Shown here in pieces: positions 3,993 through 54,555 of a stretch of DNA of 64,000 nt; position 1 is the stretch's first letter, and each line of letters starts with the position of its first letter. The DNA lies in assembly GCA_038087875.1 (NCBI GenBank), contig CM075991.1:14262001-14326000 (forward strand), read 5' to 3'. Below the pieces are notes generated by a model. That model made no database searches. It worked only from the letters and a program-made list of their open reading frames with translations, and was not told the DNA's origin. The DNA is from Malacoraja senta (lineage: Eukaryota). The position numbers and the translations under genes are program-made.

Positions 3993-4019
3993 GTGAGTCC
4001 ACCACGTGTGCAGCTTTAA

Positions 4020-5539: not shown

Positions 5540-5695
5540 CATGTTGATGTCTCGTTTTCACACCTTACCCACCCATATCTCCGTATCTCCCTCTCCACCC
5601 CCTCCTCCTCCACCAGACTCAGTCTGAAGAGGGGACTCGACCCGAAACGTCGCCCGTTCCTTCTCTCCAGAGATGCTGCCTGTCCCACTGAGCCA
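5540..5695 (+). mobile_element. Penelope-derived terminal module with hammerhead-like core (5624-5651)
   Basis: CTGAAGA-G-GGGACTCGACCC-GAAACGTC followed by the family's CTCCAGAGATGCTGCC tail. Confidence 0.7.
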
Positions 5696-8320: not shown

Positions 8321-8359
8321 CCTTTTTGATTTACCTGTTTTGTTGGATTCTACGATACA

Positions 8360-9022
8360 ATTCGCTTGGATAGTTTACACCAAAGATCCTATAGCGGAGC
8401 AAGATAGACCACTCCTGCTAAATGCAATGGGTTGACGTGTAGTACGCAACGGAGTGGAACGTGGGCCTTTTTTACATCCATTTCCGTAACCGGACCCGAC
8501 CCGACTCGCAGTGTAATCAACGTTGCGGGGGAACAGTTTGTGTTAATAAATTAAAATTCTGAAAATGAGGAGAAGATTTTTCCCAAATAACTTTTATTTT
8601 TACGAGGATGTTTCCGTAACCGGCTTCCGTCTCCGCGCTAGTATCCTATGGGATCTTTGGTGCGGAGACGGAAGCCGGTTACGGAAATGGGGCCTTAAAT
8701 GACCCATGAATCTGCCCATGACCGTACTACGTCTTTTTCGTCGAGTGGACTATCTTGCTCGCTATAGGATCTTTGGTTTACACGCCAGCGGTATAAACAT
8801 TGACCTCCAATTTCAGATAATCCTTGCTTTCTCCCTCCTTCCCCTCCCCTTCCCAGCTCTCCCACAAGCCCGCTGTCTCCACCTCTTCCTTTCTTTTTCC
8901 CGCCCCCCTACCCTACCCCCACATCAGTCTGAAGAAGGGTCTCGACCCGAAACGTGGCCTATTCCTTCACTCCATAGATGCTGCCTCACCCGCTGAGTTA
9001 CTCCAGTATTTTTGTCTACCTT
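8360..9022 (+). mobile_element. Penelope-like 3' remnant interrupted by a hAT MITE
   Basis: End of GIY-YIG-type ORF (LHASGINID) followed by terminal module with hammerhead-like core at 8929-8956 (cleavage base mutated to G). Confidence 0.65.
8381..8775. mobile_element. hAT-type MITE (395 bp)
   Basis: TIRs CAAAGATCCTATAGCG(G)AGCAAGATAG; 8-bp TSD GTTTACAC at 8373-8380 and 8776-8783. Confidence 0.85.
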
Positions 9023-9461
9023 AGATACGATACGATAGAACTTGATCCACCAACAGTCATAAAACAGAAAATGCATGAAATTAAAGTGACGAGTGGAAAG
9101 GATTGTGGATGTACAAAAATTGGGTGGGGAGTGGGGAGGGGGAGAGTCAGTCTACCCCACGACAGAAGGGGGAGGTACAGTTTAATAGCCACTGGGTTCT
9201 GAGCTAACCCTTCACATTCCTCTGCCTCTCGCGGACTTCGTGGGTCCCCTGAATGAAGCTGAGACCCTGTACGCCTGTCCTTGGGTCCGTACCCAAGAGT
9301 TAAGAGCGATTCGTAGTCGTATGTACTGGTAATTCATCAATTAAACCAGTCCAAAAGTCTTTTAAATGCCACTGTGGCCACTGCCTCCACCACCAATCCT
9401 GGCATCAAGTGCCAGGCACTCACCACCCACACTTACAGAGTGGAGAAAGTGATGCCGTTAT

Positions 9462-9730: not shown

Positions 9731-10374
9731 CTCGCCCCAGAGAGGCGTCGAGGACTGGTTGAAGTTCCAAATAAGACGGAAGTCAAGGGTTCAATGGTCA
9801 ACGCAACAACACAAGAAATAAAGAGTCAAGCATGTGTAATATTGTCATGTGTCCCAGATAGAACAATGGGATTCTTCCTTGTGGCAGCACAACACAATAT
9901 GTAAACATAGTACACTGTAAACTAGGTCATAACCGAGAACAATAAGTTCAGTGTGTACTATACTGTACACATAATCACAAATACACATTTATATATATAT
10001 ATATATACACGCACACATACGTACACACAATAATAATGCATACAATATTCCACAATACAATAAATGACAGACACAAAATGCTGGAGTAACTCAGCAGGTC
10101 AGGCAGCATTCTTATCCTCCAGTCTGAAGAAGGGTCTCGAACCGAAGTGGCGCCTATTCCTTCTCTCCATAGATGCTGCCTCACCCTCTGAGTTCCTCCA
10201 GCATTTTTGTCTACCTTTTTTCTCCAGAGACGCTGCCTGATCCGCTGAGTTAGTCCAGTATTTTGTGTCTATCTTTGGTTCAAATCAATAGTCAATAATG
10301 CTTTATTCATTTTTTCGTATATTACACATGCGGGCGCTGCTATCTTGGCACCATTATCCAATTCCTAAGCAGTC

Positions 10375-18513: not shown

Positions 18514-21500
18514 ATACTGGGCTGTAAGCTGCACAAGCGGAATATAAGGGGCTGTTCCTCCAATTTGCGATTAGCTTCACTCTGACAGTGGAGGAGGCCC
18601 AGGACAGAAAGGTCAGTGTGGGAATGGGAAGGGAAATCCAGGGCAAAAATCAAAAAGGGCCACTTTTCAACATAATTGTATAAGGGGTAAGAGCGTTGTA
18701 AAAACAAGCCTGAAGGCTTTGTGTCTCAATGCAAGGAGCATTCGTAATAAGGTGGATGAGTTGAACGTGCAGATAGCAATTAATGATTATGATATAGTTG
18801 GGATCACGGAGACATGGCTCCAGGGTGACCAAGGCTAGGAGCTGAACATCCAGGGATATTCAATATTCAGGAGGGATAGAGAGAAAGGAAAAGGAGGTGG
18901 GGTAGCGTTGCTGGTTAGAGAGGAGATTAACGCAGTGGAAAGGAAGGACATTAGCTTGGAGGATGTGGAATCGGTATGGGTAGAGCTGCGAAACACTAAG
19001 GGGCAGAAAACGCTGGTGGGTGTTGTGTACAGGCCACCTAGCAGTAGTAGTGAAGTTGGGGATGGCATCAAACAGGAAATTAGAAATGCGTGCAACAAAG
19101 GCAAAACAGTTATAATGGGTGACTTCAATCCACATATAGATTGGGTGAATCAAATTGGCAGGGGTGCTGAGGAAGAGGATTTCTTGGAATGTATGCGGGA
19201 TAGTTATCTAAACCAACATGTAGAGGAACCAACGAGAGAGCAGGCTATTCTAGACTGGGTATTGAGTAATGAGGAAGGGTTAGTTAGCAGTCTTGTTGTG
19301 CGTGCCCCCTTGGGCAAGAGTGACCATAATATGGTTGAGTTCTTCATTAGGATGGAGAGTGACATTGTTAATTCAGAAACAACAGTCTTGAACTTAAAGA
19401 AAGGTAACTTTGAGGGTATGAGACGTGAATTGGCCAAGATTGACTGGCAATTAGTTCTAAAAGGGTTGACGGTGGATATGCAATGGAAGGCATTTAAAGA
19501 CTGCATGGATGAACTACAAAAATTGTTCATCCCAGTTTGGCAAAAGAATAAATCAGGGAAGGTAGTGCATCCGTGGATAACAAGGGAAATCAGGGATAGT
19601 ATCAAAGCTAAAGATGATGCGTACAAATTAGCCAGAAAAAGCAGCATACCAGAGGACTGGGAGAAATTCAGAGACCAGCAGAGGAGGACAAAGGGCTTAA
19701 TTAGGAAAGGGAAAATAGATTATGAAAGGAAACTGGCAGGGAACATAAAAACTGACTGCTAAAGTTTTTATAGATATGTGAAGAGAAAGAGATTAGTTAA
19801 AACAAATGCAGGTCCCTTGCAGTCAGAAACAGTTGAATTGATCATGGGGAACAAGGATATGGCGGACCAATTGAATAACTACTTTGGTTCCGTCTTCACT
19901 AAGGAAGACATAAATAATCTGCCGGAAATAGCAGGGGGCCGCGGGTCAAAGGAGATGGAGGAACTGATTGAAATCCAGGTTAGTCGGGAAGAGGTGTTGG
20001 GTAAATTGAATGTATTAAAGGCCGATAAATCACCAGGGCCAGATAGGCTGCATCCCAGAGTACTTAAGAAAGTAGCTCCAGAAATAGTGGATGCATTAGT
20101 GATAATTTTTCAAAACTCTTTAGATTCTGGAGTAGTTCCTGAGGATTGGAGGGTAGCAAACGTAACCCCACTTTTTAAGAAGGGAGGGAGAGAGAAAACG
20201 GGGAATTATAGACCAGTTAGTCTAACATCGGTAGTGGGGAAACTGCTAGAGTCAGTTATTAAAGATGGGATAGCAGCACATTTGGAAAGTGGTGAAATCA
20301 TTGGACAAACTCAGCATAGATTTACGAAAGGTAAATCCTGTCTGACGAATCTTATAGAATTTTTCGAGGATGTAACGAGTAGAGTGGATAGGGGAGAACC
20401 AGTGGATGTGTTGTATCTGGACTTTCAGAAGGCTTTCGACAAGGTACCACATAAGAGATTAGGATACAAACTTAAATCATACGGTATTCGGGGTTCAGTA
20501 TTGATGTGGATAGAGAACTGGCTGGCAAACAGGAAGCAAAGAGTAGGAGTAAACGGGTCCTTTTCACAATGGCAGGCAGTGACTAGTGGGGTACCGCAAG
20601 GCTCAGTGCTGGGACCCCAGCTATTTACAATTTATATTAATGAACTGGATGAGGGAATTGAAAGCAACATCTCCAAGTTTGCGGATGACACTAAGCTGGG
20701 GGGCAGTGTTAGCTGTGAGGAGGATGCTAGGAGACTGCAAGGTGACTTGGATAGGCTGGGTGAGTGGGCAAATGTTTGGCAGATGCAGTATAATGTGGAT
20801 AAATGTGAGGTTATCCACTTTGGTGGCAAAAACGGGAAGGCAGACTATTATCTAAATGGTGGCCGATTAGGAAATGGGGAGATGCAGCGAGACCTGGGTG
20901 TCATGGTACACCAGTCATTGAAAGTAGGCATGCAGGTGCAGCAGGCAGTGAAGAAAGCGAATGGTATGTTGGCTTTCATAGCAAGAGGATTTGAGTATAG
21001 GAGCAGGGAGGTTCTATTGCAGTTGTACAGGGTCTTGGTGAGACCACACCTGGAGTATTACGTACAGTTTTGGTCTCCAAATCTGAGGAAGGACATTATA
21101 GCCATAGAGGGAGTGCAGAGAAGGTTCACCAGACTGATTCCTGGGATGTCAGGACTTTCATATGAAGAAAGACTGGATAGACTTGGCTTATACTCGCTAG
21201 AATTTAGGAGATTGAGAGGGGATCTTATAGAAACGTACAAAATTCTTATGGGGTTGGACAGGCTAGATGCAGGAAGATTGTTCCCGATGTTGGGGAAGTC
21301 CAGGACAAGGGGTCACAGCTTAAGGATAAGGGGGAAATCCTTTAAGACCGAGATGAGGAAAAACTTTTTCACACAGAGAGTGGTGAATCTCTGGAACTCT
21401 CTGCCACAGAGGGTAGTTGAGGCCAGTTCATTGGCTATATTTAAGAGGGAGTTAGATGTGGCCCTTGTGGCTAAGGGGATCAGGGGGTATGGAGAGAAGG

Positions 21501-21735
21501 CAGGTACGGGATACTGAGTTGGATGATCAGCCATGATCATATTGAATGGCGGTGCAGGCTCGAAGGGCCGAATGGCCTACTCCTGCACCTATTTTCTATG
21601 TATCTATGTATCTATGAAATGTTTGGCAACCGGGAGATCAGGTAGGTCCAGGCGGGCTGAGCAAAGGTGTTCAGCGAGACGATCGCCCAGTCTATGTTTG
21701 GTCTCACCGATGTATATGAGTCCACATCTTGACCA
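18514..21735 (-). pseudogene. Penelope-like GIY-YIG endonuclease remnant (18514-18637 plus 21616-21735) split by CR1
   Basis: RCGLIYIGETKHRLGDRLAEH...VAKHF joins PSHSHTDLSVLGLLHCQSEANRKLEEQPLIFRL. Confidence 0.8.
18638..21615 (+). mobile_element. CR1 LINE, near-complete ORF2 (APE endonuclease + RT), 5'-truncated
   Basis: One reading frame 18638-21517 with [25 protein letters not shown] and FADD; in-frame stops TAG 18836 and TAA 19760. Confidence 0.95.
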
Positions 21736-21797
21736 ACCGATCAATCGATCCATCAATCGATCAACCAATCACTCAACCGATCAATCAATGAATCAAT
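21735..21797. repeat. (ATCA/ATCG)n tetranucleotide repeat
   Basis: Direct reading. Confidence 0.75.
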
Positions 21798-22936
21798 GAG
21801 AAGTGAGCAGCCTCCTGTGCAGCAACCCAGAGGGTTGAGGGTGCCATGTTCCACTGTGTGTGTGGGTGCTGTGGGAGCAGTGAGTGGACCAGGGGGTGGG
21901 GACATATCCAGTCAGCGTGATTACAATCGAGTGTACAGATACAGGATAAAGGGAAAGACATTTAGTGAAGATAAAGTCTAGTAAAGTCCAATTAAAGATA
22001 GACCGAGGGTCTCCAATGGGGTAGGTGGGAGCGCTCTCAGGATAGGACGGTTCAGTTGCCTGATAACAGCTGGGAAGGAACTGTCCATGAATCTGGAGGT
22101 GTCAGTTTTCACACTCTGGTTGGGGTGGGGTGGGGAAACGGGGGGAATATTTAAAATTGCAGACTTCAATGTTGATACCTATGTCCCCAGGATCCATTCA
22201 TCACTGCCAGGCTTTGGACCACCATCATCTCTTTTCCAATATTCTCCCAAGTCTGAAGAAGGGTCCCGACCTGAAACGTCACCCATCCATGTTCTCCGGA
22301 GATGCTGCCTGACTCCCTGAGTTACTCCAGTACTTTGTGTCTTTATTTTTTGTAAAGTAGCACCTGCAGTTCATTGTTTCTCCATCCATCACTTGCCAGG
22401 TCTCGCCCTGCCCCCACCTCCCGAGGGTCTCGATCCCAAAACGTCACCCGTTCCTTCTCTCCAGAGTTGCTGCCTGACTCGCTGAGTTACTCCAGTGCTT
22501 TGTGTCTTACCTTCGGTTTAAACCAGCATCTGCAGTTCCTTCCGACACAGGAGGAGCCGCAGCACTGGATACGTGAAGCTGGGCATGAATAAAGTCTGAA
22601 GCAGATCAAGATAAATGAGTCTGTGCCACCAGGACATTAACGTGCAGAAAGAGATGTCCTCAGGGTGACACATTCCTGTGACACATAGAACAGATTTCTC
22701 TCCTGGCCCGACTCCCAGGGCAGCAGGAAGCACTCCGTCCCAATCACAAGCGCTGCCAGTGGAGCAGGGCCACAGAGGAAGCCCCTCAGTCCAGCATGGA
22801 TGTACAAGATTACGCAGCACTGCCTTTAAAGTAACAACAGCACGGTGGCTCAGCTGGTAGAGCCGCTACCTCACAGCGCCTGGGACCCCGGTTCAATCCT
22901 CAGCTCAGGTGCTGTCTGTGTGGAATTGGCATGTGG

Positions 22937-23180: not shown

Positions 23181-24287
23181 CATACCCCCAGTGTTGGCCA
23201 CCACTATGCCACAGCACGGTGAAGGCCAGGCCCAGGGATCGGTGGCCATAGAGATGTCGCTGCGTGTGAGGTGTGACAGAGCAGCCTGATGATGCAGCAC
23301 CACTGCAGCTGCAGATTGGCAGCACAAATCATCCTGATATCATTACTTCATAAACTGGTGTTGGGCGCAGTGCATAAGTGGGAGAAATATGAGTCAGACG
23401 CACTTGCAAACAAATTCTCCTGACATCTGATAAATGCATGGAGGCTGTAAGTCACCCTGGGGACACACAATTTCATTCACTGACGGAGTTAATGGATGGC
23501 CCCGCTCGATCACTGTCCACTAGAAAGGCATAGAGTGGAAGGTGGACACAAAATGCTGGAGTAACTCAACGGGACAGGCAGCATCTCTGGAGAGAAGGAA
23601 TGGGTCACATTCGGGTCGAGACCCTTCTTCAGTCTGAAGGCAGAGATCAGTCTTGATTGAATGGCGGAGTAGACCCGATGGGCCGAATGGCCTAATTCTA
23701 CCCCTATGAGCTTGTCTGGACAAGGGGGGAGGGGGAACGAGCTGCCGGAGGAGGTAGTTGAGGCAGGGACTATCGCAACGTTTAAGAAGCATTTAGACAG
23801 CAACATGAATAGGAAAGGTACACAAAAATGCTGGAGAAACTCAGCGGGTGCAGCAGCATCTATGGAGCGAAGGAAATAGGTAACGTTTCGGGCCGAAACC
23901 CTTCTTCAGACTGGGAATAGGAAAGGCCTGGATAGAGAGAATGTGGAGAGGATGTTTCCACTAGTGGGAGAGTCTAGGACCAGAGGCCACAGCCTCAGAA
24001 GAAAAGGACATACATTTAGAAAGTTATATGAGGAGGATGGTGAATCTGTGGAATTCATTGCCACAGACGTCGGTGGAGGCCAAGTCAATGGATATTTTTA
24101 AAGCGGCGATAGATAGATTTTTGATCTACTTGTGTCAGAGAGAATGGGGTTGAGAGGGAGAGATAGATCAGCCATGATTGAATGGCGGAGGAGACTTGAT
24201 GGGCTGAATGGCCTAATTCTGCTCCTATAACTGATGAACATGAAAGGTTTGGAGGGATATGGGCCATCTACACTGGTCCCACCTGCC

Positions 24288-26210: not shown

Positions 26211-27176
26211 ACTGCAATAAACTTGAGTGGTTTAAGGTGAGAGGGGAAAGGTTTGATAGGAACCTGAGGGGCAACTTTATCACACAGATGGTCATAGAGT
26301 GATACAGTATGGAATCAGGCCCTTTGGCCCAACTTACCCACACTGGCCAACATGTCCCAGCTACACTCGTCCCACCTGCCTGCGTTTGGTCCATATCCCT
26401 CCAAACCTGTCCTATCCATGTACCTGTCTAACTGTTTCTTAAACATTGGGATAGTCCCAGCCTCAACTACCTCCTCTGGCAGCTCGTTCCATACGCCCAC
26501 CACCCTTTATGTGAAAAAGTTACCCCTCAGATTCCTATAAAATCTTTTCCCTTTCACCTTAAACCTACAGTATGTCCTCTGGTCCTCGGTTCCCCTACTC
26601 TGGGCAAGAGACTCAGTGCATCTACCCGATCTATTCTTCTCATGATTTAATACACCTGTATAAGATCCCCCCTCATCCCCCTGTGGTGGTGGACATGTGG
26701 AACGAGCTGCTTGAGGAGATAAAAGACACAAAGTGTTGACGATGTCACAGTGAATGCCATCAGCTGTAGCTCCCTGCAACACGGGAGCAGCTTGAGGGAA
26801 GGGTCTGGGCTAAAGGGTATTTATCTTCATACCCACCCCTCCACACCACCCTCCCCACCTCCCCCAATGGTGCCACGCCCCCTGTTAACTCACAAGCAAC
26901 TGTTGATTGGCTGCCATGCACAGCACCTTCACCAGAACAAACAAACAAACACAGACTTATCCCCCTGGGCAGAGTATTCTAAACTAGAGTGTGTACCCGC
27001 CCGCCACCCACCCACTCCCACGGCAGTCCCCCCACACCTGGTCGCCATTGTCTTCCCCTCCCCCCCTCACGCTCATCGACCATTGATCAGGGGTCGATCG
27101 CGAGGCATTGCCCCCCCCCCACTCTGCCATCGAGGCTCCCTCGGCACTCGCGGATAAACATGGAAAGGCCTTTCTC

Positions 27177-27880
27177 GAGAGACCAAACGTAGACTCGCTG
27201 AACACCTCCGCTCAGTCCGCCTTGGCCTACGCGATCTCCCGGTTGCCAATCATTTCAACTCCCCCTCCCATTCCCACACTGACCTTTCTGTCCTGGGCCT
27301 CCTCCATTGTCAGAGTGAGGCCCAGTGCAAATTGGAGGAACAGCACCTCATATTTCACTTGGGCAGCTTACACCCCAGCGGTATGAACATTGACTTCTCT
27401 AACTTCAAGTAACCCTTGCTTTCCCTCTCTCTCCATCCCCTCCCCCATCCTAGTCGTCATACTAGTGTCACCGTCGTCGAGTCGCGTTCCATTGTTTGTA
27501 TAACTCGTTGTCACCTGGAGGTCAGCCAACAATGGACCATTGTGGGCTCCACCTTTCCTTGACTACGGGTGCTTGTCCGTACGGAGTTTGTACGTTCTAC
27601 CCATGACCTGCGTGGGTTTTCTCCGAGATCTTCGGTTTTCTCCCACACCCCAAAGACGTACAGGTCTGTAGGTGGATTGGCTTCGGTCAAATTGTAAATT
27701 GTCCCTAGTGCGTGTAGGATGGTGTTAGTGTGCGGGATCGCTTTCCTAGTACCATCCATATCTCTTGTTCCTCTCTCCGCTGACTCTCAGTCTGAAGAAG
27801 GGTCTCGACCCCGAAACGTCACCTGTTCCTTTACCCGAGAGATGCTGCCTGACCCGCTGAGTTACTCCAGCACTTTGTGT
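27177..27880 (+). mobile_element. Penelope-like element 3' part: GIY-YIG remnant, terminal module, hammerhead-like core at 27792-27820; SINE piece inserted at ~27560-27740
   Basis: ETKRRL..EHLRS..VANHFNSPSHSHTDLSVLGLLHCQSE..KLEEQHLIF, then the terminal module on the same strand. Confidence 0.8.
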
Positions 27881-27952
27881 CTGTCCTGGCTGTAACCTGA
27901 TTGTACACCACTTTGTGTAGTTACCCCTGGCTCTCGGGGATTCTACAACTAA

Positions 27953-28269
27953 AACCCCTGTCCCACGGTACGAGTTCATTCCAAGAGCTCTCCCGAGTTT
28001 GCCCTGATTCGAACTCGGAGATTTACGGTAATGGCCACTCATCGGTACTCGGGGCTCTCGTGGACATTTTTCCTCATGTTGGAAAATCTTCCCGAGTCTT
28101 CCCGAGTACCTGCCGTTAGCGAGTCTTCCCGAGTACCTGCCGTTAGCGTTACGAGACGTCCCCGAGCTCGTACGTACCCGCTACGTTCATTCTCCGTGCT
28201 TACCACGAGTTTGATTTTTTTTAAACTCGGGAGAGCTCTTGGAATGAACTCGTACTGTGGGACAGGGCT
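27953..28269. mobile_element. PIF/Harbinger-type MITE
   Basis: ~45-bp TIRs CCCTGTCCCACGGTACGAGTTCATTCCAAGAGCTCTCCCGAGTTT; same family as 34152-35129; TSD not clean. Confidence 0.75.
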
Positions 28270-31259: not shown

Positions 31260-32682
31260 AGCAAATATGAACTTAATGTGTAGAAAGGAACAGCAGATGC
31301 TGGTTTGGACTGAAAATAGACACAACATGCTGGAGTAACTCAGAGGGACAGGCAGCATCTCTGGATAGAAGGAATGGGTGACATTTCGGGTCGAGACCCT
31401 TCTTCAGACTTAAAGCAGGAAAGAGGTTCTTGAACAAACAGCAGAGAGGAGGCAGAGGCGTTAAGTTTAAAACAGTCTAGACATATTAGAAAGTGGTGAA
31501 TATGGCCAATATTAAAACATTTACCAAAGCAACTAAATAGAAGGGAAGGTTTAAGAAGGAACTGCAGATGCTGGAAAATCGAAGGTGGACAAAAATGCTG
31601 GAGAAACTCAGTGGGTGAGGCATCATTCTATATCTATGGAGCGAAGGAAATAGGCAACGTTTCGGGTCGAGATCCTTCTTAGAATAGAAGGGAAGGGCGC
31701 TCTTTTGAGATAGAGATTGTGTCTGGGTTTTCCCAAGTCGAGCTGAGCAGAGGTTCATTTAATGTTCTGAGTGGCCAGATTCCTAATGAACAACGAAGGA
31801 ATGTGGTGTTTTATAAATGAAGAATAAATCTCTTTCAATTCTAGTCACTCACCAGGACTGCAGCTGTTCAAGGTGACTCACCACCACCCCCTTGTGGGCA
31901 AAAGGGGATGGGCAATGAATGCTGGCCAAGTCCACTATTACCACATCTCCAGAAATAAAATGCATGTACTTTTGTTTAAAATAGCTCTGTGGCTTATTAA
32001 TCGGGAAGGAATTTAAGCGTAATATTTTTGACCATTTTTTAAATGGTTGTGATGTTTGATGTGTGTTTGTGGCTTGCTTTAATATTTGAAGTTAATAAAT
32101 AAATAGAGCAACAAGGAACTGCAGATGCCTGTCTATGAAAAAAAGATGCCACAAAGTGCTGGAGTGACTCAGCGGATCAGTCAGCATCTCTGGAGAACAT
32201 GTGTAGGTGACAGTTCGGTACAGACAGTGAAATCAATAGGATGACAATGAAACTAGTACAACGACTAGGGAGGAATATATAGGGTGCATGCACAGAGTCT
32301 CTTGCCCAGAGTAGGGGAATCGAGGACCAGAGGACATAGGTTCAAGGTGAAGGGGAAAAGATTTAATAGGAATCCGAGGGGTAACTTTTTTACACAAGGG
32401 GTGGTGGGTGTATGGAACAAGCTGCCAGAGGCGGTAGTTGCGGCTGGGACTATCCCATCGTTTAACAAACAGTTAGTCAGGTACATGGATAGGACAGGTT
32501 TGGAGGGATATGGACCAAGCGCAGGCAAGTGGGACTGATGGAGCTGGGACATTGTGGGCAAGTTGGGCCGAAGGGCCTGTTTCCACATTGTCTGACTCTA
32601 TGACTAATCATGGCTTATCTATCTCTCCCTCTTAACCCCATTCTCCCGCCTTCTCCCCATCATTCCTGACACTCGTACTAAT

Positions 32683-34151: not shown

Positions 34152-35129
34152 AAGCCCTGTCCCACTGTACGAGTTCATTCAAGAGTTCTCCCCGAGTTTG
34201 CCCTGATTCGAACTCAGAGTTTTACGGTAATGGCCGCTCGTAAGTACTCGGGGCTCTCGTGGACATTTTTCAACATGTTGGACGATAGCTAAAATAAAAC
34301 AATTCCTCCAGTTTGATGACCTGGAAAAGATCATCCACACATTCATCTCCTCCCGCCTAGATTACTGCAACTCCCTTTACACTGGCATCAGCCAATCTTC
34401 CCTGTCCCGCCTGCAACTGGTCCAAAACGCCGCAGCGAGACTCCTGACGGGCACCCGAAAAAGGGACCACATCACCCCGATCCTGGCCTCTCTCCACTGG
34501 CTCCCTGTGCGGTTCCGTATAAACTTCAAGATCCTCCTCCATGTCTACAAAGCCCTCAATGGGCTTGCCCCCACCTACATAAAAAGTCTTCTCACCCACC
34601 ACTTCACCTCCAGGCCCCTCTGATCGTCCGACTTGGGGTTGCTGAATATCCCACGGTCTAGGCATAAGCTCAGGGGCGACTGTGCCTTTGCGGTTGCAGC
34701 CCCTAGACTGTGGAACAGCGTCCCCTTTCCCATCAGAGCCACCCCCTCCATCGACTCTTTTAAGTCAAGACTAAAGACTTATCTATACTCCCAAGCCTTT
34801 CCTGACGTCCTCTGAGTGAGGGCTACGTGTATATATGTATGTAGTTTGTTTTGTTGTGCTATTCTTATAACAAATGTAAAGCACTTTGGCCAACGAGAGT
34901 TGTTTTTATAAATGTGCTATATAAATGTGACTTGACTTGATGAAAAATCTTCACGTCTTCCCGAGCTTACCGCGTTTCCCGAGTACCTGCCGTTAGCGTT
35001 ATGAGCCGCTAAGAGACGTCCCGAGCTCCGAGGTACCCGCTACGTACATTCTACGTGCTTACCACGAGTTTGATTTATTTTTAAACTCGGGAGAGCACTT
35101 GAATGAACTCGTACAGTGGGACAGGGCCT
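34152..35129. mobile_element. PIF/Harbinger-type MITE carrying an L2 insertion
   Basis: TIRs AAGCCCTGTCCCACTGTACGAGTTCATTC; flanks TGA/TAA; sits in a minus-strand Penelope module. Confidence 0.8.
34281..34940 (+). mobile_element. L2-clade LINE 3' fragment
   Basis: FISSRLDYCNSL..LQLVQNAAARLLT..HITPILASLHWLP; (GACTT)n tail. Confidence 0.88.
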
Positions 35130-36758
35130 TAAAAGTAGAGGGAGGAAGGCAGGAAAAGGCTAGAACAAAACAGGCAGGCAACAGGTGACTAAGGAAGGGT
35201 GGAGCCCATAATAGCCCATTGTTGGCTGGGTGATAACGAAGGGATACAGGGAACAGTGGAACGGGTACGACGACTAGCGTGGACAGCTTACGATAAGCAG
35301 CATGAACATGGTTTTTTCTAATTTCAAGTAACCCCTGCACTCCCTCTCCCGTTCTCTCCCACCCAAGTAGTCCTACCAGTTCCACTGATTGCATCCCTTC
35401 ACTGTAACCCATCCTTGGTCATCTGTTGCTGGCCCAGTTGTGTTCTGGCCATTTCCTACCTCCAGTCCCCTCTCCCACTTTCAGTCTGAAGGTTTCTAAA
35501 CCAAAACATCACCTATTGATTTTCTCGAGATGCTGCCTGACCTAGTTACTCCAGCACTCTGTGGATTCTTTCTAAACAAGCCAATTTTTCTCCATCAATT
35601 ACCAATTGATATTCTGACCAAATTTGACAGGGACTCCCATGTCCACCATACAAATTGTCCCTCTTCAGCAATAAATGGGCACAATTATTTCACGGTGGTT
35701 GTGTTGAATTGATAGGATCACATGATTTGAATTTAGAGCAAGTCTCATTATGGAACAGTCCACTATGGTTCCTGTCCAAATGTCTTTTTAACATTGTTAT
35801 TGTACCTGCCCCAACCACTTCCTTTGGCAGCTCATTCCATATATCCATCACCTTCCTTGTGAAAAACTTGCCTCCCAATCTTTCCCTTCTCACCTTAAAT
35901 CTATGTCCTCTGGTTATCGATTGTCCAACACCGGGGGAAAAAGACTGCATTCATCCCATCCATGATTTTATACAGCTCTATAAGGTCACCCCTCAGCCTC
36001 CTGCGCTCTAAGGAATAAAGTCCTCGCCTGCCCAACCTCTCCCTGTAGCTCAGGCTCTCGAGTCCTCGAAACATCCTCTTAAACCTTCATTTAGTTTAGA
36101 GATACAGCGCAGAAACGGACCATAATAAAACATTTCCATGGGCAGAGGAATTAAACTGTAATGTTTTATTATTAATGTTTAATGTGTTATTCTTAATTGT
36201 TACTGTATGTCGTGTTGCTACTTGCGAGCGGAGCACCAAGGCAAATTCCTTGTATGTGTACATACTTGGCCAATAAAGTATTCATTCATTCAATAAACCT
36301 ATTCATTCATTCATTCATTCAATGTGAATGTTTTTAATGGGCATTTCAGCAATGGTAAAACTGTTTTTGAACACTTTGAAGAGCTGAAGAGCGAGCAGAA
36401 TGGTGCAATCACAACATCCATGTTGAGCCAACATTTAACAAGTTGTAACATTTCCAATCTAGAACTCAGAAATGGTTGGTATATTATCACTATGATGATC
36501 TACAGTGCCCTCCATAATGTTTGGGACAAAGACCTATCATTTATTTATTTGCCTCTGTACTCCACAATTTGAGATTTGTAATAGAAAAAAAATCACATGT
36601 GGTTAAAGTGCACATTGTCAGATTTTAATAAAGGCCATTTTTATACATTTTGATTTCACCATGTAGAAATTACAGCAGTGTTTATACTTAGTCCCCCCAT
36701 TTCAGGGCACCATAATGTTTGGAACACAGCAATGTCATGTAAATGAAAGTAGTCATGT

Positions 36759-38035
36759 TTAGTATTTTGTTGCATATCCTTTGCATGCAATGACTGCTTG
36801 AAGTCTGTGATTCATGGACATCACCAGTTGCTGGGTGTCTTCTCTGGTGGTGCTCTGCCAGGCCTGTATTGCACCCATCTTTAGCTGATGCTTGTTTTGG
36901 GGGCTAGTCCCCTTCAGTTTTCTCTTCAGCATATAAAAGGCATGCTCAATTGGGTTCAGATCGGGTGATTGACTTGGCCACTCAAGAATTGACCATTGTT
37001 TAGCTTTGAGAAACTCCTTTGTTGCTTTCGCAGTATGTTTTGGATCATTGTCTTGCTGTAGAATAAACCGCTGGCCAATAAGTTTTGAGGCATTTGTTTG
37101 AACTTGAGCAGATAGGATGTGTCTATACACTTCAGAATTCATTATGCTACAATGAAGATAAGTGAGCCAGTACCTTCAGCAGCCATACATGCCCAGGCCA
37201 TAACACCCCCACCACCATATTTCACAGATGTGGCGGTAAGCTTTGGATCTTGGGCAGTTCCTTCTCTCCTCCATACTTTGCTCTTGCCATCACTCCGATA
37301 TGTTCATCTTTGTCTCATCTGTCCACAAGAACTATTTCCAGAACAGTGGATGCTCTTTTAAGTACTCTTAAAGATAATAATGATTAATTTCAGATAGCCC
37401 TTGCTTTCCCTTTCTCTCTCCATCCCCTTCCCCTTCCCAGTTCTCCCACTAGTATTACTGTCTCTGCCTACATTCTATCTTTGTCCCACCCCCTCCATTT
37501 GCATCAGTCTGAAGAAGGGTCTCGACCCGAAACGTCGCCCATTCCTTCTCTGCCTCACCCGCTGAGTTACTCCAGCATTTTGTGTCTACCTTCGATTTAA
37601 ACCAGCATCTGCAGTTCTTTCTTACACTCTTTTAAGTACTTCTTGGCAAACTGTAACCTGTCCATCCTATTTCTGCGGCTAACCAGTGGTTTTGATCTTG
37701 CAGTGTAGCCTCTGTATTTCTGTCCATGAAGTCTTCTGCAGACAGTGGTCAGTGACAAATCCACACCTGGCTCTTGAAGAGTGTTGGACAGTTGTTTGGG
37801 GATTTTTCTTTATTATAGAGAGAATTCTTCTGTCATCAGCTGTGGAAGTCTTTCTTGGCCTACCAGTCCCTTTGCGATTAGTAAACTCGCCAATGCTCTT
37901 GTTCTTCTTAATGATGTTCCAAACAGTTGATTTTGGTAGGCCTAAAGTTTGGCTGATGTCCCTAACAGTTTTATTCTTGTTTCTCAGTCTCATAATGGCT
38001 TCTTTGACTTTCATTGGCACAACTTTGGTCCTCAT
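36759..38035 (-). pseudogene. Tc1 DD34E transposase, disrupted
   Basis: HTH N-terminus with GRPRK; QQDNDPKH...WPSQSPDLNPIE (34 residues between D and E); frameshifts plus insertion at 37367-37626. Confidence 0.9.
37367..37626 (+). mobile_element. Short Penelope-derived insertion with intact hammerhead-like core (37509-37536)
   Basis: 14-bp TSD CTCTTTTAAGTACT at 37353-37366 and 37627-37640. Confidence 0.85.
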
Positions 38036-38499
38036 GTTGATAAACAGCAATAAAAGTTTCCAAAGGTGATGGAAACACTGGAGGAAAGTCTAGGTGCTGA
38101 GAGCTCTCTTATACCTACATTAAGGAGGCAATTAAACACACCTGAGCAATTACAAACACCTGTGAAGCCATGTGTCCCAAACATTATGGTGTCCTGAAAT
38201 GAGGGGACTATGTATAAACACAGCTGTAATTTCTACACGGTGAAACCAAAATGTATAAAAATGGCCTTTATTAATATCTGACAATGTGCACTTTAACCAC
38301 AATTGATTTTTTTTCCAGTACAAATCTCAAATTATGGAGTACAGAGGCAAATAAACCTTCGATTTTCCAGCATCCGCAGTTCCTTCTTTAACAAATAAAT
38401 AAATGATGGGTCTGTCCCAAACATTAAGGAGGGCACTGTATATTATCTAATTTTAAATGTTCTTGAGTTTTAGGAATCATCAGTCAAATATTAACATTT

Positions 38500-45604: not shown

Positions 45605-47685
45605 CTGCAAGTCAGAAACACAATGGCAATTGTTGATAACCAAATGCAAAAAACTCCGTCACTGAATTCTGTTTGGCACAGACATTATGTGCCAAAGTGC
45701 CTATTCCCGCGCTATACTGTTCTATGCCAATACTTTATCTGATACTTTAAAATAAATAGTTTTACCAAAATGGCAAAAAGTCATATACTACATAACGATG
45801 TAAATGCTGGCCATCTACATTGATTCCATTCTCCAGCATTTAGTTGGTCGCCTACAATGCTGTAGCGATTCAAATGCTTGTCCAGATGCTGTGAGAGCAT
45901 CTGCCTCCATCATCCCCTTAGAGGTCTACCTGAAAGAAAATCTCCCTCAAACAATTTCCAAGCCTCTTGCTTCTTACTTTAAATCTATACCTGCTCTTGC
46001 AAGTCTACAAGAATTACACAATGGAAACTCATGTGAAATTACTTTTGCCACCTTTGTAAAACTATTTATTTTTAGGTATCAGAGAAAGTAGCTACATTGG
46101 CATAGAACAGTATAGCACATACCCTTTGGCCCACAATGTCAGGGCCAAATATGATGCCAGGTTAAACTAATCTCCTCTGCCTGCAAGTGATCCATATCCC
46201 TCCATTCTCTACATAACCATGTCTCTATCAAAAAACCTCTTAACTGCCAGTCGTATCTACGTCCACCACCACCCCTGGCAATGTGTTCCAGGCACACACC
46301 ACACAGTGGGTAAAAAAAGTAGTCCCATACACCATCCTTTAAACTTTTCCCCTCTCACCTTAGAGCTCCATCCCTGGGACAAAAAGGTTCAGACTGTCTC
46401 CCCTATCTATGCCTCTCATAAGTTGAAATACTTCCTTTAGTACCATGTTTGTATGGTGAAACAACCTAGAAGTTAATTAGGTATGTTAATCAGTCGCCAG
46501 ATGACACATTTGGTTGTGGGACATCCATTTTAAGACTGAAAATTCAGCTGTGCCTGAGGACTAAGGACCTGGGCATTTCCAAAATGAGGATAGAACTTGT
46601 GTTTAAACAAGGAACTGCAGATGCTGGTTTACAAGCTAAGACACAGAGTGCTAAAATTGCTAATCAGGTCAGGCAGAAACTCAGGAGAACATGTCGATAG
46701 ACGACATTCCGGGTCAAGACCCTTCTTCAGACTGATCCGCCTGAAGGGTCTGTCATCAGTCTAAAGAAAGGTTCCGACTCCAAATGTCACCTATCCCATA
46801 TTCACCAGAGATGCTGCCTGGCCCACTGAGTCTTCTATGTGTCTTCTAGACTGTTTGTGTGCTGGGGCAGAAGGAGTGAAAGCTCTTTAACTATGTTAGC
46901 TGCTTTCCTGAAGCAGTATAATTGGAATCATTGGTGGGGAGTGTGGTTTGTGCGATGGACTGGGCTCCATGCACAAATCTCTGCAATTTCTTGTGATCTT
47001 GGGCAGCACTGTTCCCGAACCAATTTGTGAGGCAACCCGACAGTATGCTTTCCATCACCCAATGCAGGAAGCACAAAGATAGATACAAAGTGCTGGAGTA
47101 ACTCAGCGAGTCGGGCAGCATCTCTGGAGAAAAATGACTGGTGACATTTCGGGTCACCTTCTTCGGACTGAAAGTAGGGGATGGGAACTGAAGAGCTGGA
47201 GCGAGAAAAGACCAGGATCAAACAGGGTGGTGCCTGGTAAGCCCTTTGTTGGCTAGGGAAGGTGTGATCTCAAGAGCGAAACAATGTGGAGAACTGTGGA
47301 ACTGTAAAAGGACAAGGGTGGCAGAATGGGTCAAGGGGGGTGGGAGGGGAGTGCAAGTAGAAGTTACTTAAAATAGGAGAATTCAATGTTCCTGCCGCTG
47401 GGTTGTAAGCTACCCGAGCGGAATTCCAATTTACGTGTGGCCTCACTCTGGTAATGGAGGAAACCCAGGACAGAAATGTCAGTGTGGGAATGGGAAGTAT
47501 ACCATCTGTCCAAGCGCAATGCAATATGGGAAATAGTTACAAATTTCTGGAGTGGTCGATTCAGAAACCATCACAATTATCTCTCACGGATGAGAAAAAG
47601 CCTGACTTTTTCCTAAAGGCTTGGCAGTGGGAAAAAAAGTACTGTGCGATTGAATTTCTAGAAAGACCGGTTAATCTTTTGACTA

Positions 47686-47958
<273 letters not shown>

Positions 47959-48420
47959 TCACAATCCCAGTGTCGTACTTCCCTCATTCCCTTTTATAAA
48001 ATAATGTTTAATTCAATGTGAAAATAAAAGACTGGCACAAGAGAGCAACAGCTCTGCTGGAGGAACTCAGCAAGTCAAGCAGCATCTGTGGAGGGGGAAA
48101 ACAAACTGTCGACATGTTGCATCCAGATGGTGCATCAGCACTTGATGCAGGGTCTCCACCCAAAATGTTACCTGAGTAGTTGAAGTGTTTGTGATAGAAT
48201 ATAGAACATAGGATAGTACAGCACAGGAACAGGCGTTTCAGCCCACAATGCTAAGTTAAACTAACCTCCTCTGCCTGCATGTGATCCATACCTCTCCAGT
48301 CCCTGCATATCCATGTGCTTATCCAGAAATCTTTTAAACACCACGGTCGTATCTGCCTCCACCACCATCCTGGCAGGGAGTTCCAGGTACCCACCAGAAT
48401 TGAGTGACTTTATTTCAGAC

Positions 48421-50023: not shown

Positions 50024-51247
50024 TTACCTATAGATTCCACTGTACAACCACTACGCTGCAACACCACTGATGTGATGGAACATTAACTATTTTAGTTGTG
50101 GTCTCACTGCTTCAAAAGCCAGTTATATCCATAGCCTCATTAGGCTACGGCTACTGGAGTCTGGAAAGATTAATGGAAATAATCCTTGTTTGAATAGTGG
50201 CACAGCAGTAGAGTTTCAACCTTACAGCACCAGAAACCCAGGTTCGATCCCGAGTACGGGTGCTGTCGGTACGGAGTTTGTACGTTCTCCGTGTGACCCC
50301 GTGGGTTTTCTCCGGTTGCTCCGGTTTCCTCCCACACTCCTAAGACGAGCAGCATTGTAGGTTAGTTGGGTACAGTAAAATTGTAAATTGTCCCTAGTGT
50401 GTAGGATAGTGCTAGTGTACGGGGTTCGCTGGTTGGAGTGGACTCTGTGGGCCGAAGGATATGTTTCCGCTTTCTACCTCTATAAGAGTGGAGGCTGGTA
50501 TCTGGAAAGGAGTTGGCAAGAGCAGGACAAAGATCAGGATTGTGCATACATCTGTTTATCAGTGGTGTAAGAGGAGGGGTGGAGATATATTTAATCCAGA
50601 GTAAATCTATTTTCATATCACAGTACGTTATAGAACAGAACCATCAAGAAACGTCTTTAAAATCAGTTCTATTTTGATTTATTCAACATAAATTATTGAT
50701 AGAAAGCAGTAATAATGAGGAAAAAAAATCAAGTTCTGGAATTACAAGATTACCATTTACTTGACAGTAACATTGAAGAAATTCATGGATCTGTATATAA
50801 GACGGGAGAGAGATGGGGCAGGATGCAGCACACCCAGCTCATAGATACAGAATAATCACTGGTGAGCAACCAGGAAAATCACTGACAAAGTGCTTCCATA
50901 ATACAGCAGGTCAGGCAGCATCTCTGGAAGACATGAAAAGACGTTTCAGGTTGGGAGACTTCTTCAGACCTGATCCAAAGCTTTGCCTATTCATATCGTC
51001 CGATACTGCCCGACCCGCTTACTCTAGCACTTTGCACCTTTTTTATTTGTAAGCCAGCATCTGCAGTCCCTTGTGTCTACAGACCACTGATAGTGTCAAT
51101 GTAGAGCTGGAGTTTGTGCACCAAAAGAGGGGAAAATATGGAAAATTTAAAAAATACTACTCTATTTCAATAATTATTCAAATAAAATTCAATTACAGAT
51201 CATTTATGTTTGGGGAGTTGATCGTAGCGGACGGAGATCCTACATAC

Positions 51248-52449: not shown

Positions 52450-54555
52450 TTTTGTTAAATACATCAAGAATCTGTCAATCTCCACTTTAAAAATAGACTT
52501 GGTCTCCATGGCCCTCTGTTGCAATAAATTCCACAGATTCACCACCATCTCCTCCTCATCTCCTTTCTGAAGGTATATTATTTTTCTTCTGAGGCTATGG
52601 CCTCTGGACCCAGACACTCCGACTAGTGGAAAAACCTTCTCCACACCCACTCTATCCAGACCTTTCACTATTGGGAAGTTTCAATTACGTTCCCACTCAT
52701 CCTTTTAAAGTTCTGTGCGTACAGGCCATGTGCAGTCAAAAGCTCAGTATATGTTAACGCAATCATTCCTGGGATCATTCTCATAAACCTCCTCAGGACC
52801 CTTGCTCACAATACTCCAAATGCAGTCTGACCCGTGCCTTATAAAGCCTCAGCATTACATCCCAGTTTTTATATTCTAGTCCTCTCAAAATAAAGCATTT
52901 AGCCTCCTTACTACCGATTCAACTTGAAAATTAACTTTTGGGAATCCTGCACCAGCACTCCCAAGTCCTTTTGCACCTCTGATTTCAGAATTCTCTCCCC
53001 ATTTAGAAAATAGTCAACACCTTTATTCCTACTGCCAAAATGCACGACTCCACACTGTGGTACGCTGTATTCCAACTGCTACTTCTTTGCCCACTGTCCT
53101 AACCTGTCCAAGTCCTTCTGCAGAGTCCCTGCATTCTCTACACTACCTGCTCCTCCACCTACCTTTGTTATCATCTGCAAACTTAGCCACAAAGCCTTCT
53201 GTTCCCTCATCCAAATCATTGCTATACAACGCGAAGAGTAGCGCCCCCGACACTGACCCATGCGGAACTCCGCTAGTCACTGGCAGCCAAACAGTAAAAG
53301 CTCCCTTTATTACCACTCTTTGCCTTCTGTCATCCAGCCAACCTGCTATCCATGCTAGCATCTTCCCTATGATACCTTGGGTTTTCATCTTCTTTAGCAG
53401 CCTCACATGCGCACCTTATCAAAGGCCTTCTGAAAATCCAGGTAAACAATATCCACTGACTCACCTTTGTCTATCTTGCTATTTATTTCCTCAAAGAATT
53501 CCAACAGGTCTGTTCAGCAAGATTCTCCCTTTTAAGTACTCAGAAACCTCATAGTTTATAATGGACTCTAAAATCTTACCAACCACTCAAGACAGGTTAA
53601 CTAGCCTATAGTTTCCACTCTTCTGCTTCGTTCCCTTTTTGAACAGCGGAGTAATATTTACAATTTTCCAATTGTCTGGAACCACCTCTGACTAGTCATT
53701 CTTGAAAGATCACTACTAATGCTTCCACAATCTTTAAAGCCACATCTTTCAGAACTCTGGGGTGCGGTCCAACAAATCCAGGTGAGTTATCCACCTTTAG
53801 ACCTTTCAGCTTGCCAAACAGCTTCTCCTTACTAATAGCCACTCCACCAACTTTCACCGCCTGACTCTCTTGAATTTCAGGCACGTTGTGAGCTACTTCC
53901 ACTATGAAGACTGATGCAAAAAAACCATATTCAATTCAGCCATTTCTTTATTCCACATTATCACTTCTCTAGCATCATTTTCCAGCGGTCCAATGTCCAC
54001 TCTTGCCAGATAGACACAAAAAGCTGGAGTAACTCAGCGGGACAGGCAGCATCTTTGGAGAGGAGGAATAGACAATAGGTGCAGGAGTAGGCCATTCGGC
54101 CCTTTGAGCCAGCACCACGGGTGCTGGTTGACATTTCAGGTTGAGACCCTTCTTCAGACTTTAGAGATGCTACCTGTCCCGCTGAGTTACTCCAGCTTTT
54201 TGTGTCTATCTTCAGCTAAAAACCAGCATCTGCAGTTCCTTCCAACACATTTTATCCACTCTTGCCTCTTCCTTACTCATTTTGTATCTGAAGAAACTTT
54301 TGCTATCCTCTTATATGGACTTTCTGTTGCTTTTTTAAAAGGCTTCACAATCCTCTAGCTTCCCACGCATCTTTGCAATGTTATGTGCCTTCTATTTATG
54401 TTTTATGCTGTTTTCGATTTCCCTTGTCAGCCACGGTCGCCTCATTCTCCCCTTAGAATCTTTCTTCCTCTTTGGAATGAAAAGATGCTGCACCTTCCAA
54501 ATTATTCTCAGAAATTCCTGCCATTGCTGTTCCAAAGCCATTCCTGCTAGGGTCT
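52450..54555 (-). mobile_element. Old degraded CR1
   Basis: GLKVDNSPG..HPRVLK, GVPHGSV, KFADD fragments; many disablements; Penelope module inserted at ~54010-54245. Confidence 0.85.

What the first reader, a model, noticed from the sequence alone, without database searches (positions are those of the whole stretch)
37509..37536. Minimal hammerhead-ribozyme-like core carried by an abundant Penelope-derived module
Seen: CTGAAGA-A-GGGTC(TC)GACCC-GAA-ACGT-C. This gives the CUGANGA box, a 5-bp helix II, the GAAA box, a palindromic ACGU mini-helix III and a GUC cleavage triplet. Near-intact copies are at 22253-22280 (+), 27792-27820 (+), 5624-5651 (+) and 23882-23909 (-), with more than 10 decayed copies. 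At 27177-27880 the motif lies downstream of a GIY-YIG remnant on the same strand. Known: Penelope-like elements carry minimal type-I hammerheads with palindromic helix III that cleave as dimers. Inference: this genome has a very high-copy, retrozyme-like family. Caveats: helix I looks only 2-3 bp long and there is an extra purine before helix II.
Basis: partly seen in the sequence, partly recalled or inferred. Interest (0 to 1): 0.72.

Follow-up and report, generated by a model that had tools for sequence, protein, structure and literature searches.

The report
Minimal hammerhead in skate Penelope element
The 28 bases are the small, two-copy type of self-cutting RNA motif that Penelope-like jumping genes are known to carry, here scattered as dozens of truncated, mostly dead copies in a skate genome, so the catch is correct but the kind is already described.

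Summary
The motif is real and is a minimal hammerhead (min-HHR) in the pseudo-LTR of a Penelope-like element (PLE), probably Neptune-type, of a skate. The flagged copy is a 260-bp insertion with a 14-bp target-site duplication inside a Tc1 transposon; it runs from the last endonuclease codons through the pLTR and hammerhead to the 'tail'. The window holds 42 fragments (6.6% of it), 6 with an intact core and 2-bp helix I. Head-to-head pairs, one-sided tails and CpG decay mark truncated PLE insertions, not retrozyme arrays. Corrections: helix II is 4 bp plus a tetraloop; there is no monomeric helix III; the extra purine is a published consensus trait. Family-specific points: helix I is only 2 bp, so the published descriptor (3 bp or more) finds 0 copies here, and the bases after the cut site are predicted to out-compete helix II. 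Cleavage is not shown: no covariation excess within the window and no pile-up of RNA ends in three RNA runs of a relative. The class was described in 2014, and this scan has noted it before in other cartilaginous-fish genomes.

The parts
37353..37366 (.). left target-site duplication (14 bp) in the host Tc1 element
   Evidence: identical to 37627-37640
37367..37385 (.). 19-nt filler at the 5' junction, origin unknown
   Evidence: lies between the duplication and the start of PLE similarity
37386..37397 (+). last codons and stop of the PLE endonuclease ORF
   Evidence: aligns with the ORF end at 27400-27412 and with 8809 onward
37398..37506 (+). C/U-rich part of the pseudo-LTR
   Evidence: 76% like 8809-9026, 79% like 27400-27475; pyrimidine fraction 0.7-0.9
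37507..37508 (+). helix I, 5' strand (2 bp only)
   Evidence: pairs with 37537-37538; third pair is a mismatch
37509..37516 (+). CUGANGA box (C3-A9) plus the extra A before helix II
   Evidence: matches the published consensus CUGANGAH
37517..37528 (+). helix II: 4 bp with a CUCG loop, G10.1-C11.1 at its base
   Evidence: 88% of cells paired over 30 copies
37529..37536 (+). GAAA box, self-complementary ACGU (dimer helix III) and C17; predicted cut after 37536
   Evidence: matches the descriptor term gaaannuh; the cut is inferred, not shown
37537..37547 (+). helix I 3' strand and the segment predicted to pair with the 5' core and helix II strand instead (OFF fold)
   Evidence: thermodynamic prediction only
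37548..37589 (+). 3' part of the pLTR, with an 11-nt deletion in this copy; ends near the first cluster of 3' ends
37590..37626 (+). optional 'tail' of about 35 nt, ending at the second cluster of 3' ends
   Evidence: 3' ends cluster at +60..+68 (14 of 42) and +91..+102 (14 of 42) from the cut site
37627..37640 (.). right target-site duplication
27161..27895 (+). longest copy: C-terminal half of the GIY-YIG endonuclease (stop at 27412), pLTR interrupted by another repeat (about 27560-27742), hammerhead core 27792-27820
47073..47498 (-). second ORF-linked copy: endonuclease end, pLTR, decayed core at 47166
8785..9026 (+). copy with ORF end, full pLTR and core (position 17 is G)
35296..35572 (+). 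copy with ORF end, full pLTR and decayed core
5624..5651 (+). intact core, helix II 3 bp, helix I 2 bp
22253..22280 (+). intact core, helix II 4 bp, helix I 2 bp
23882..23909 (-). intact core of a second subfamily (UUCG loop, GUU triplet)
31380..31407 (-). core intact apart from a CpG change at 15.2
54005..54251 (.). example of a head-to-head pair with a tail on one side and a 12-nt word shared by both flanks
21607..21741 (-). separate endonuclease remnant that keeps the YIG motif
   Evidence: 69% identical over 42 aa to P0004, E 4e-18
18516..18632 (-). separate endonuclease remnant

Best explanation
The motif is the minimal type-I hammerhead in the pseudo-LTR of an endonuclease-bearing Penelope-like retrotransposon of a skate, probably of the Neptune type. 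Shown: the anatomy, the position 150-200 nt after the endonuclease stop, and the insertion signatures. Inferred: the element's protein nicks DNA and starts reverse transcription at one of two sites about 62-68 and about 100 nt downstream of the hammerhead cut site, on uncut RNA. It usually stops early, leaving 100-250-bp stubs, often as head-to-head pairs with a tail on one side. Each stub copies the ribozyme passively and then decays. In the source element the ribozyme is probably off as a monomer (no helix III, 2-bp helix I, competing fold) and cuts only weakly, as a dimer of two pLTRs in a tandem transcript and probably with help from the element's protein.
For: Anatomy equals the published consensus except for the third pair of helix I; 7 core matches in the window against a mean of 0.03 in 60 shuffles. 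P0001 is 55-78% identical to 20 longer proteins, the named ones all from cartilaginous fish; among 8 of them scanned, 6 hit GIY-YIG and P0006 passes the cut-off and also hits RT. 10 of the 20 carry the CX2-5CxxC linker that marks Neptune/Nematis (PMC8557442). Host gene LETM2 is 95% identical to the Amblyraja radiata protein in its longest exon. 14-bp duplication around the flagged copy. Eight head-to-head pairs, 6 with a tail on one side only, 1 unclear, 1 uninformative. Two clusters of 3' ends about 35 nt apart, as in the anole element (PMC11167929). 34 of 42 fragments begin upstream of the cut site and only 2 begin within 3 nt after it, one of those being the far half of an interrupted copy. 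An independent set of 121 metagenome loci with the same core: helix I pairs covary (53 of 59 and 52 of 59 distinct arms paired, with A-U, U-A, C-G and G-C types; mean 2.95 bp against 1.22 with shuffled partners), and in 24 of the 28 loci with a PLE protein hit the motif lies 71-226 nt downstream on the same strand. CpG sites in the core decay like others: G12 is changed in 6 of 23 copies.
Against: No cleavage is shown. The published descriptor (helix I of 3 bp or more) finds 0 copies here. No covariation above shuffles in 30 window copies (126-224 of 500 shuffles as high). The hammerhead fold is far from the predicted minimum: 22-41 kcal/mol above the best dimer fold in 7 copies, against a median of 13.9 in 88 metagenome motifs. 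No place where many molecules begin or end in three RNA runs of a relative (threshold a fifth of the depth, so a weak negative). No full ORF lies in the window, the window's own fragment has no Pfam hit, and no RT tree was built, so the clade rests on the linker of homologues. Rfam gives no hammerhead hit at E up to 10.
Confidence: 0.85

Rival explanations
1. Vestigial ribozyme: the motif descends from a PLE hammerhead, but this lineage no longer cuts; the sequence is kept for another role (promoter, protein binding, overlap with the start of the ORF) or by inertia.
For: Helix I is 2 bp in all 6 intact copies, against a median of 4 in 88 relatives. Helix II probability is under 0.07 in 8 of 10 copies. 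No RNA end pile-up. 10 of 15 fragments in LETM2 introns lie in the gene's sense. Hammerhead mutants did not affect insertion in vitro for the anole element (PMC11167929). A downstream block outside the core is about as conserved as the core.
Against: The core is the consensus of about 6,500 loose read ends per run in a relative and is shared by subfamilies that differ around it. Non-CpG core positions differ in 16 of 223 cells against 116 of 711 downstream (inflated, because rows were picked by the core and are related). 2-bp helix I occurs in five published PLE hammerheads. None of the 10 sense copies in LETM2 is a complete hammerhead.
Confidence: 0.3
2. Built-in switch: the bases right after the cut site repeat the 3' strand of helix II and, with the C/U run behind them, lock the RNA in an inactive rod until the PLE protein or a second copy refolds it.
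For: RNAalifold on 18 copies picks this rod over helix II, with 16-17 of 18 copies paired at its four main pairs. Removing the 3' arm raises helix II probability to 0.39-0.99 in 7 of the 8 locked copies. Only 5 of 89 metagenome motifs are as low as 0.05. The anole hammerhead cuts only with its protein (PMC11167929).
Against: Shuffled 3' arms lock the fold as well in 6-33 of 100 trials, so base composition may suffice. Variation in the rod is wobble only, with one double change at one pair. Two of 10 copies are not locked.
Confidence: 0.15
3. One reading: a non-autonomous retrozyme family spreading through circular RNA.
For: Very high density; 0.3-0.5% of reads in a relative lie on a 441-bp stretch with two copies and two other repeat pieces. 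A preprint reports retrozymes in one cartilaginous fish and derives them from pLTRs. Three same-strand neighbours lie 165-275 bp apart.
Against: No array of hammerhead units (the only module repeat is 2 x 57 nt without the core). The neighbours differ in diagnostic bases and look like separate insertions. Copies have ragged 5' ends, tails, inverted partners and duplications, and five join the ORF end. The motif is minimal, whereas retrozymes have canonical hammerheads in tandem units (PMC7229834).
Confidence: 0.04
4. Chance resemblance of a common repeat to a hammerhead.
For: One ancestral match is copied many times, so copy number is no evidence; no Rfam hit; no covariation in the window.
Against: Right place in the right element; the same core with covarying helices sits after PLE endonucleases in unrelated loci; a descriptor match is rare in shuffles.
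Confidence: 0.01

Closest known systems
Minimal hammerheads (min-HHR) in pLTRs of metazoan PLEs (Cervera and De la Pena 2014, PMC4209133); nearest listed motifs: Acropora digitifera Neptune, Culex, Xenopus family 2
   Same: CUGANGAH box, G10.1-C11.1, GAAAC-GU-H without helix III, U-rich 5' flank, position in the pLTR after the endonuclease, mostly solo truncated copies
   Different: Helix I of 2 bp (below the descriptor's 3; as in five listed motifs), helix II at the short end, a predicted competing rod; no cartilaginous fish among the 56 motifs of their Fig. S3; density in this window far above the 4,000-9,000 per genome reported for coelacanth and Xenopus if it holds genome-wide (not tested)
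Poseidon element PAc of Anolis carolinensis (Frangieh et al. 2024, PMC11167929)
   Same: Hammerhead upstream of two internal reverse-transcription start sites that define a tail; uncut RNA as template; no RNA-seq ends at the cut site
   Different: Other clade (homologues here have the Cys linker); starts lie about 62-68 and 100 nt after the cut site; the core here has no AUG; nothing is tested biochemically
Neptune/Nematis-type EN+ PLEs (Craig et al. 2021, PMC8557442; insertion structure also in Arkhipova et al. 2013, PMC3846280)
   Same: C-terminal GIY-YIG, CX2-5CxxC linker in homologues, 5' truncation, inverted partner, 30-40-bp tail on one side, short duplications
   Different: No full ORF in the window; clade not tested by a tree
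Metazoan non-LTR retrozymes (Cervera and De la Pena 2020, PMC7229834; Li et al. 2026, bioRxiv 10.64898/2026.07.22.740005)
   Same: Type-I hammerhead, PLE ancestry proposed, non-coding copies
   Different: No tandem units, no canonical helices or loop contact, no evidence of circles

Membership tests
PLE minimal hammerhead (min-HHR) | CUGANGA box plus one extra nucleotide before helix II | tested here: met
PLE minimal hammerhead (min-HHR) | Helix II of 3-7 bp, loop 3-10 nt, G10.1-C11.1 | tested here: met
   4 bp plus tetraloop; 88% of cells paired in 30 copies
PLE minimal hammerhead (min-HHR) | GAAANNUH with self-complementary 15.1-16.1 and no helix III | tested here: met
PLE minimal hammerhead (min-HHR) | Helix I of 3-7 bp (published search descriptor) | tested here: not met
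   0 window hits at 3 bp or more, 6 at 2 bp. The paper itself counts 2-bp motifs as members (Culex, three Drosophila species, Oikopleura), so this is a search cut-off rather than a class boundary
PLE minimal hammerhead (min-HHR) | Lies in the pLTR downstream of the endonuclease | tested here: met
   155 and 198 nt after the stop, 380 with an inserted repeat;
PLE minimal hammerhead (min-HHR) | Covariation of the helices | tested here: inconclusive
   none above shuffles in the window; clear in 59 distinct arms of related motifs elsewhere
PLE minimal hammerhead (min-HHR) | Self-cleavage after NUH as a dimer or with protein | not testable with these tools
   no end pile-up in 3 RNA runs is a weak negative
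EN+ Penelope-like element | C-terminal GIY-YIG endonuclease joined to RT | tested here: met
   through homologues; the window keeps only endonuclease remnants
EN+ Penelope-like element | 5' truncation, inverted partner, one-sided 30-40-bp tail, target-site duplication | tested here: met
Neptune clade | CX2-5CxxC linker between RT and EN | tested here: inconclusive
   in 10 of 20 homologues; that part is not kept in the window; shared with Nematis
Neptune clade | RT phylogeny | not tested
Non-LTR retrozyme | Head-to-tail units of 150-450 bp, each with a hammerhead | tested here: not met
Non-LTR retrozyme | Canonical type-I hammerhead with 6-bp helix I and loop 1-loop 2 contact | tested here: not met
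Non-LTR retrozyme | Accumulates as circular RNA | not testable with these tools
   the laid runs were oligo-dT or single-cell libraries

The most novel reading that the evidence does not exclude
Skate PLEs carry a hammerhead cut down to a 2-bp helix I and held in a selected OFF rod by the sequence just after the cut site, released only by the element's protein or a second copy. Because the standard descriptor misses it, a very large set of such motifs (on the order of 10^5 intact cores if this window is typical), many of them transcribed, has gone uncounted, and some could cut host RNAs in trans when the element is expressed.
Probability: 0.12. Interest if true: 0.55.

Novelty: new member of a known kind. 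Interest (0 to 1): 0.25.

Why it matters
As it stands it adds a skate family to a class known since 2014. Two practical points remain. The family is invisible to the published descriptor and to Rfam, so hammerhead counts in cartilaginous fish may be too low. And a family this abundant, with several subfamilies, is good material for the open question of what PLE hammerheads do, since genome-wide orientation bias, subfamily covariation and RNA-end mapping would all have power. If the OFF fold is selected, it would give a concrete mechanism for the protein-assisted cleavage seen in the anole element.

Tried and rejected
Rfam scan at E up to 10: 24 weak hits, no hammerhead. No whole genome is held, so there is no genome-wide count or tree. 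Viral contigs: 0 matches. Run search: no RNA holder listed; 20 rows hold part of the stretch, 6 of them half the words or more; not used as evidence on expression. Pfam: no hit for P0001; the protein atlas gave only GIY-YIG leads under 0.9. A second reading frame over the flagged pLTR showed no likeness to P0001. One search had helix I in the wrong columns and is superseded. Helix II lengths were off by one and are superseded; that script stopped after printing the five helix I rows, and its last part was rerun. A hotspot of 5' ends just upstream of the core (18 of 26 copies extend 15 nt or less) is not claimed, because the C/U-rich pLTR differs between subfamilies and may simply not align. 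The 3-10-fold strand bias in single-cell run X21 is not claimed as selection: reads run on into a G/A stretch that could prime oligo-dT. Same-strand neighbours as a retrozyme dimer: rejected, they look like separate insertions. A 5-bp helix II and a monomeric helix III: rejected on steric grounds. Shared words in the flanks of inverted pairs reached 8-12 nt in 3 of 8 pairs; the other five (5-6 nt) are at a level chance could give. Lunse et al. (RNA Biol 14:1499) is not held; I saw only its title and a review's summary, so it may already list cartilaginous-fish motifs. The preprint's supplements are closed, so its cartilaginous-fish families could not be compared.

Full report
Observation. The 28 bases at 37509-37536 read as described. 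The pattern has 12 matches with up to 3 mismatches and none in 100 shuffles. A profile built from 16 copies finds 42 fragments, 22 on the minus and 20 on the plus strand, covering 6.6% of the window; the reversed window gives one 9-bit hit. Of 30 aligned copies, 8 keep all core positions; 6 also keep helix II and a 2-bp helix I: 5624+, 22253+, 27792+, 37509+, 23909- and 31407-. Rfam has no hammerhead hit at E up to 10.

Host and setting. The window holds a LETM2 gene on the minus strand (coding exons 40913-62618), 95% identical in its longest exon to the Amblyraja radiata protein, so the host is a skate or close relative. The flagged copy lies in a Tc1-type transposon (DDE_3 and HTH hits on either side). 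It spans 37367-37626 between two identical 14-bp words. It begins, after 19 nt of filler, with the last codons of an ORF, then a C/U-rich stretch, the hammerhead, a 3' part with an 11-nt deletion, and a tail.

The element. The peptide at 27161-27409 has no Pfam hit of its own. It is 55-78% identical to 20 longer proteins among 72 candidates, the named ones all from skates, rays and sharks. Of 8 of these scanned, 6 hit GIY-YIG weakly; P0006 passes the cut-off and also hits RT. Ten of the 20 have a CX2-5CxxC motif before the endonuclease, which PMC8557442 (12 of 28 passages seen) gives as the mark of Neptune and Nematis. Further endonuclease remnants lie at 18516-18632, 21607-21741 and 47367-47498. 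The core follows the stop by 155 and 198 nt, or 380 where another repeat has inserted. The zebra-shark protein P0009 runs on past the endonuclease and ends in a peptide that matches the hammerhead read in frame, a hint that sharks have the motif at the same place.

Insertion signatures. 3' ends cluster at +60 to +68 (14 of 42) and +91 to +102 (14 of 42; 8 of these at the end of the reference) from the cut site. Eight pairs lie head to head; in 6 the tail is on one side only, 1 is unclear, 1 uninformative (the pair at 58599-58825 judged by eye). Three of the 8 have 8-12-nt words shared by both flanks. These are the marks of PLE insertions in PMC8557442 and PMC3846280 (12 of 16 passages). PMC11167929 (parts 1-2 of 4) showed for an anole element that the tail lies between two internal reverse-transcription starts, that uncut RNA is the main template, that the hammerhead cuts only with the protein, and that no RNA-seq reads end at the cut. 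Here 34 of 42 fragments start upstream of the cut site, so uncut (or re-joined) RNA was copied.

The ribozyme. PMC4209133 (parts 1-2 of 4 and the whole supplement as machine text) gives the consensus CUGANGAH, helix II closed by G-C, GAAAN-palindrome-NUH, and a descriptor with helix I of 3-7 bp. I ran that descriptor. It finds 0 copies at 3 bp, 6 at 2 bp and 7 with no helix I limit, against a mean of 0.03 in 60 shuffles. Helix II is 4 bp with a CUCG or UUCG loop, not 5 bp. ACGU can pair only between two copies. The extra A is part of the consensus. Five of the 56 published motifs also have 2 bp in helix I, and none of the 56 is from a cartilaginous fish.

Conservation. Within the window there is no covariation above shuffles. 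Non-CpG core positions differ from the majority in 16 of 223 cells and downstream positions in 116 of 711 (23 rows); the rows were picked by the core and are related, so this overstates the case, and one downstream block is as constant as the core. CpG sites change in 22-26% of cells, G12 included, which is decay after insertion. The pattern fixes neither helix I nor position 17, yet 119 of 127 have A, C or U at 17, the first two helix I pairs hold in 53 and 52 of 59 distinct arms with swapped pair types, and mean helix I is 2.95 bp against 1.22 with shuffled partners. 28 of 121 loci hit the PLE proteins, and in 24 the motif is 71-226 nt downstream on the same strand. 82 of 121 pass the published descriptor. 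So the core is a true min-HHR in its kin; the pattern came from the window, so this set is not an unbiased sample.

What is particular here. Helix I is 2 bp against a median of 4 in 88 related motifs, and the dimer hammerhead lies 22-41 kcal/mol above the best fold against a median of 13.9. The four bases after the cut site mimic the 3' strand of helix II, and the predicted fold is a rod that buries the core. Helix II probability is under 0.07 in 8 of 10 copies, rises to 0.39-0.99 in 7 of those 8 when the 3' arm is removed, and is under 0.05 in only 5 of 89 related motifs. But shuffled arms do as well in 6-33 of 100 trials, and 2 copies are not locked. This is a lead, not a result.

RNA. On 23500-23940 (two copies and two pieces of other repeats), 65,992 and 69,934 of 12.9 million oligo-dT reads and 53,818 of 17.6 million single-cell reads of coded organism B were laid, and 184,055 contigs of a DNA run of organism D. 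The consensus of about 6,500 loose ends per oligo-dT run is the intact core with GUC. The two commonest changes in the second copy's helix II keep its pairs (40 of 135 differences were shown). No place had many molecules beginning or ending; the threshold is a fifth of the depth and the reads are from another species and many loci, so this excludes only dominant cleavage. In LETM2 introns 10 of 15 fragments lie in the gene's sense, none a complete hammerhead, while all 6 complete ones are among the 27 outside; too few to read either way.

Retrozyme? Retrozymes are tandem units of 150-450 bp with canonical hammerheads (PMC7229834, 12 of 31 passages; bioRxiv 10.64898/2026.07.22.740005, parts 1-3 of 5, which reports them in one cartilaginous fish; its supplements were closed). 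The window has no such array. The copies are stubs of PLE insertions.

Mechanism, with status. Shown: anatomy, place in the pLTR, insertion marks, decay. Inferred from the anole work: nicking, internal priming at two sites, copying of uncut RNA. Inferred from PMC4209133 and the review PMC6765202 (6 passages): weak cleavage as a dimer in tandem transcripts. I put the identity at about 0.95 and real cleavage in the source element at about 0.6; the vestigial reading competes only with the second point.

Novelty. The class is known. Five literature searches showed no paper on hammerheads of skate or shark PLEs; the little-skate genome paper does not use the word Penelope in its main text (6 passages on repeats), and PMC6155905 (4 passages) mentions sharks only for the name. 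Lunse et al. was not available and may cover them. Earlier notes of this scan report the same kind in other cartilaginous-fish genomes; none matched this sequence or genome. If this window were typical of a 2.2-Gb skate genome, there would be over a million fragments and about 2 x 10^5 intact cores; this is an extrapolation from 64 kb. Verdict: new member of a known kind, interest 0.25.

Noticed in passing
window 40913-62618 (-): LETM2 gene, nine coding exons found by similarity to skate and ray proteins
   Followed up: partly
window 36494-38447: Tc1-type transposon with inverted ends, host of the flagged insertion; a second short PLE tail piece lies at 38355-38388
   Followed up: partly
window 18839-21517 (+): LINE with open endonuclease and RT frames (Pfam Exo_endo_phos, RVT_1); 20861-21616 is 98.8% identical to 15284-16039, a recent copy or duplication
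   Followed up: no
window 16650-17033, 46600-46844, 58599-58825: Head-to-head junctions fall at the 5' edge of the core, where the sequence is nearly palindromic; others (13494-13498, 50968-50970) join through 3-5-nt overlaps
   Followed up: partly
window 48055-48173: Older, more diverged pair of the same class with CUGAUG in the core and a different 3' arm
   Followed up: no
window 23530-23915, run X21: Single-cell reads lie 3-10 times more often on the strand opposite to the hammerhead; internal priming at a purine run is the simple explanation
   Followed up: partly
window 23547-23593, runs X23, X24: Several hundred reads show a 66-nt head-to-tail repeat of the module's 3' part that lacks the CUGANGA box; 10164-10276 is a similar 57-nt doubling
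   Followed up: no
P0009 508-518; P0002, P0003, P0005, P0007, P0020: Database gene models of skates, rays and sharks include PLE endonuclease or pLTR pieces fused to other names or domains, probably annotation artefacts
   Followed up: no
L038, L094, L104: Motifs close to the published Acropora digitifera Neptune hammerhead, with 2-3-bp helix I
   Followed up: partly
L008, L013, L020, L025, L039, L053, L083: Variants with a few extra bases after GAAACGU, apparently a short helix III with the cut site shifted
   Followed up: no
window 8611-8687: Near-perfect inverted repeat just upstream of the 8785-9026 copy; 27948-28269 and 34152-34282 belong to another short repeat family beside module copies
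   Followed up: no
window 27560-27742: Repeat inserted in the pLTR of the longest copy; it looks like a V-SINE (name recalled, from no call)
   Followed up: no
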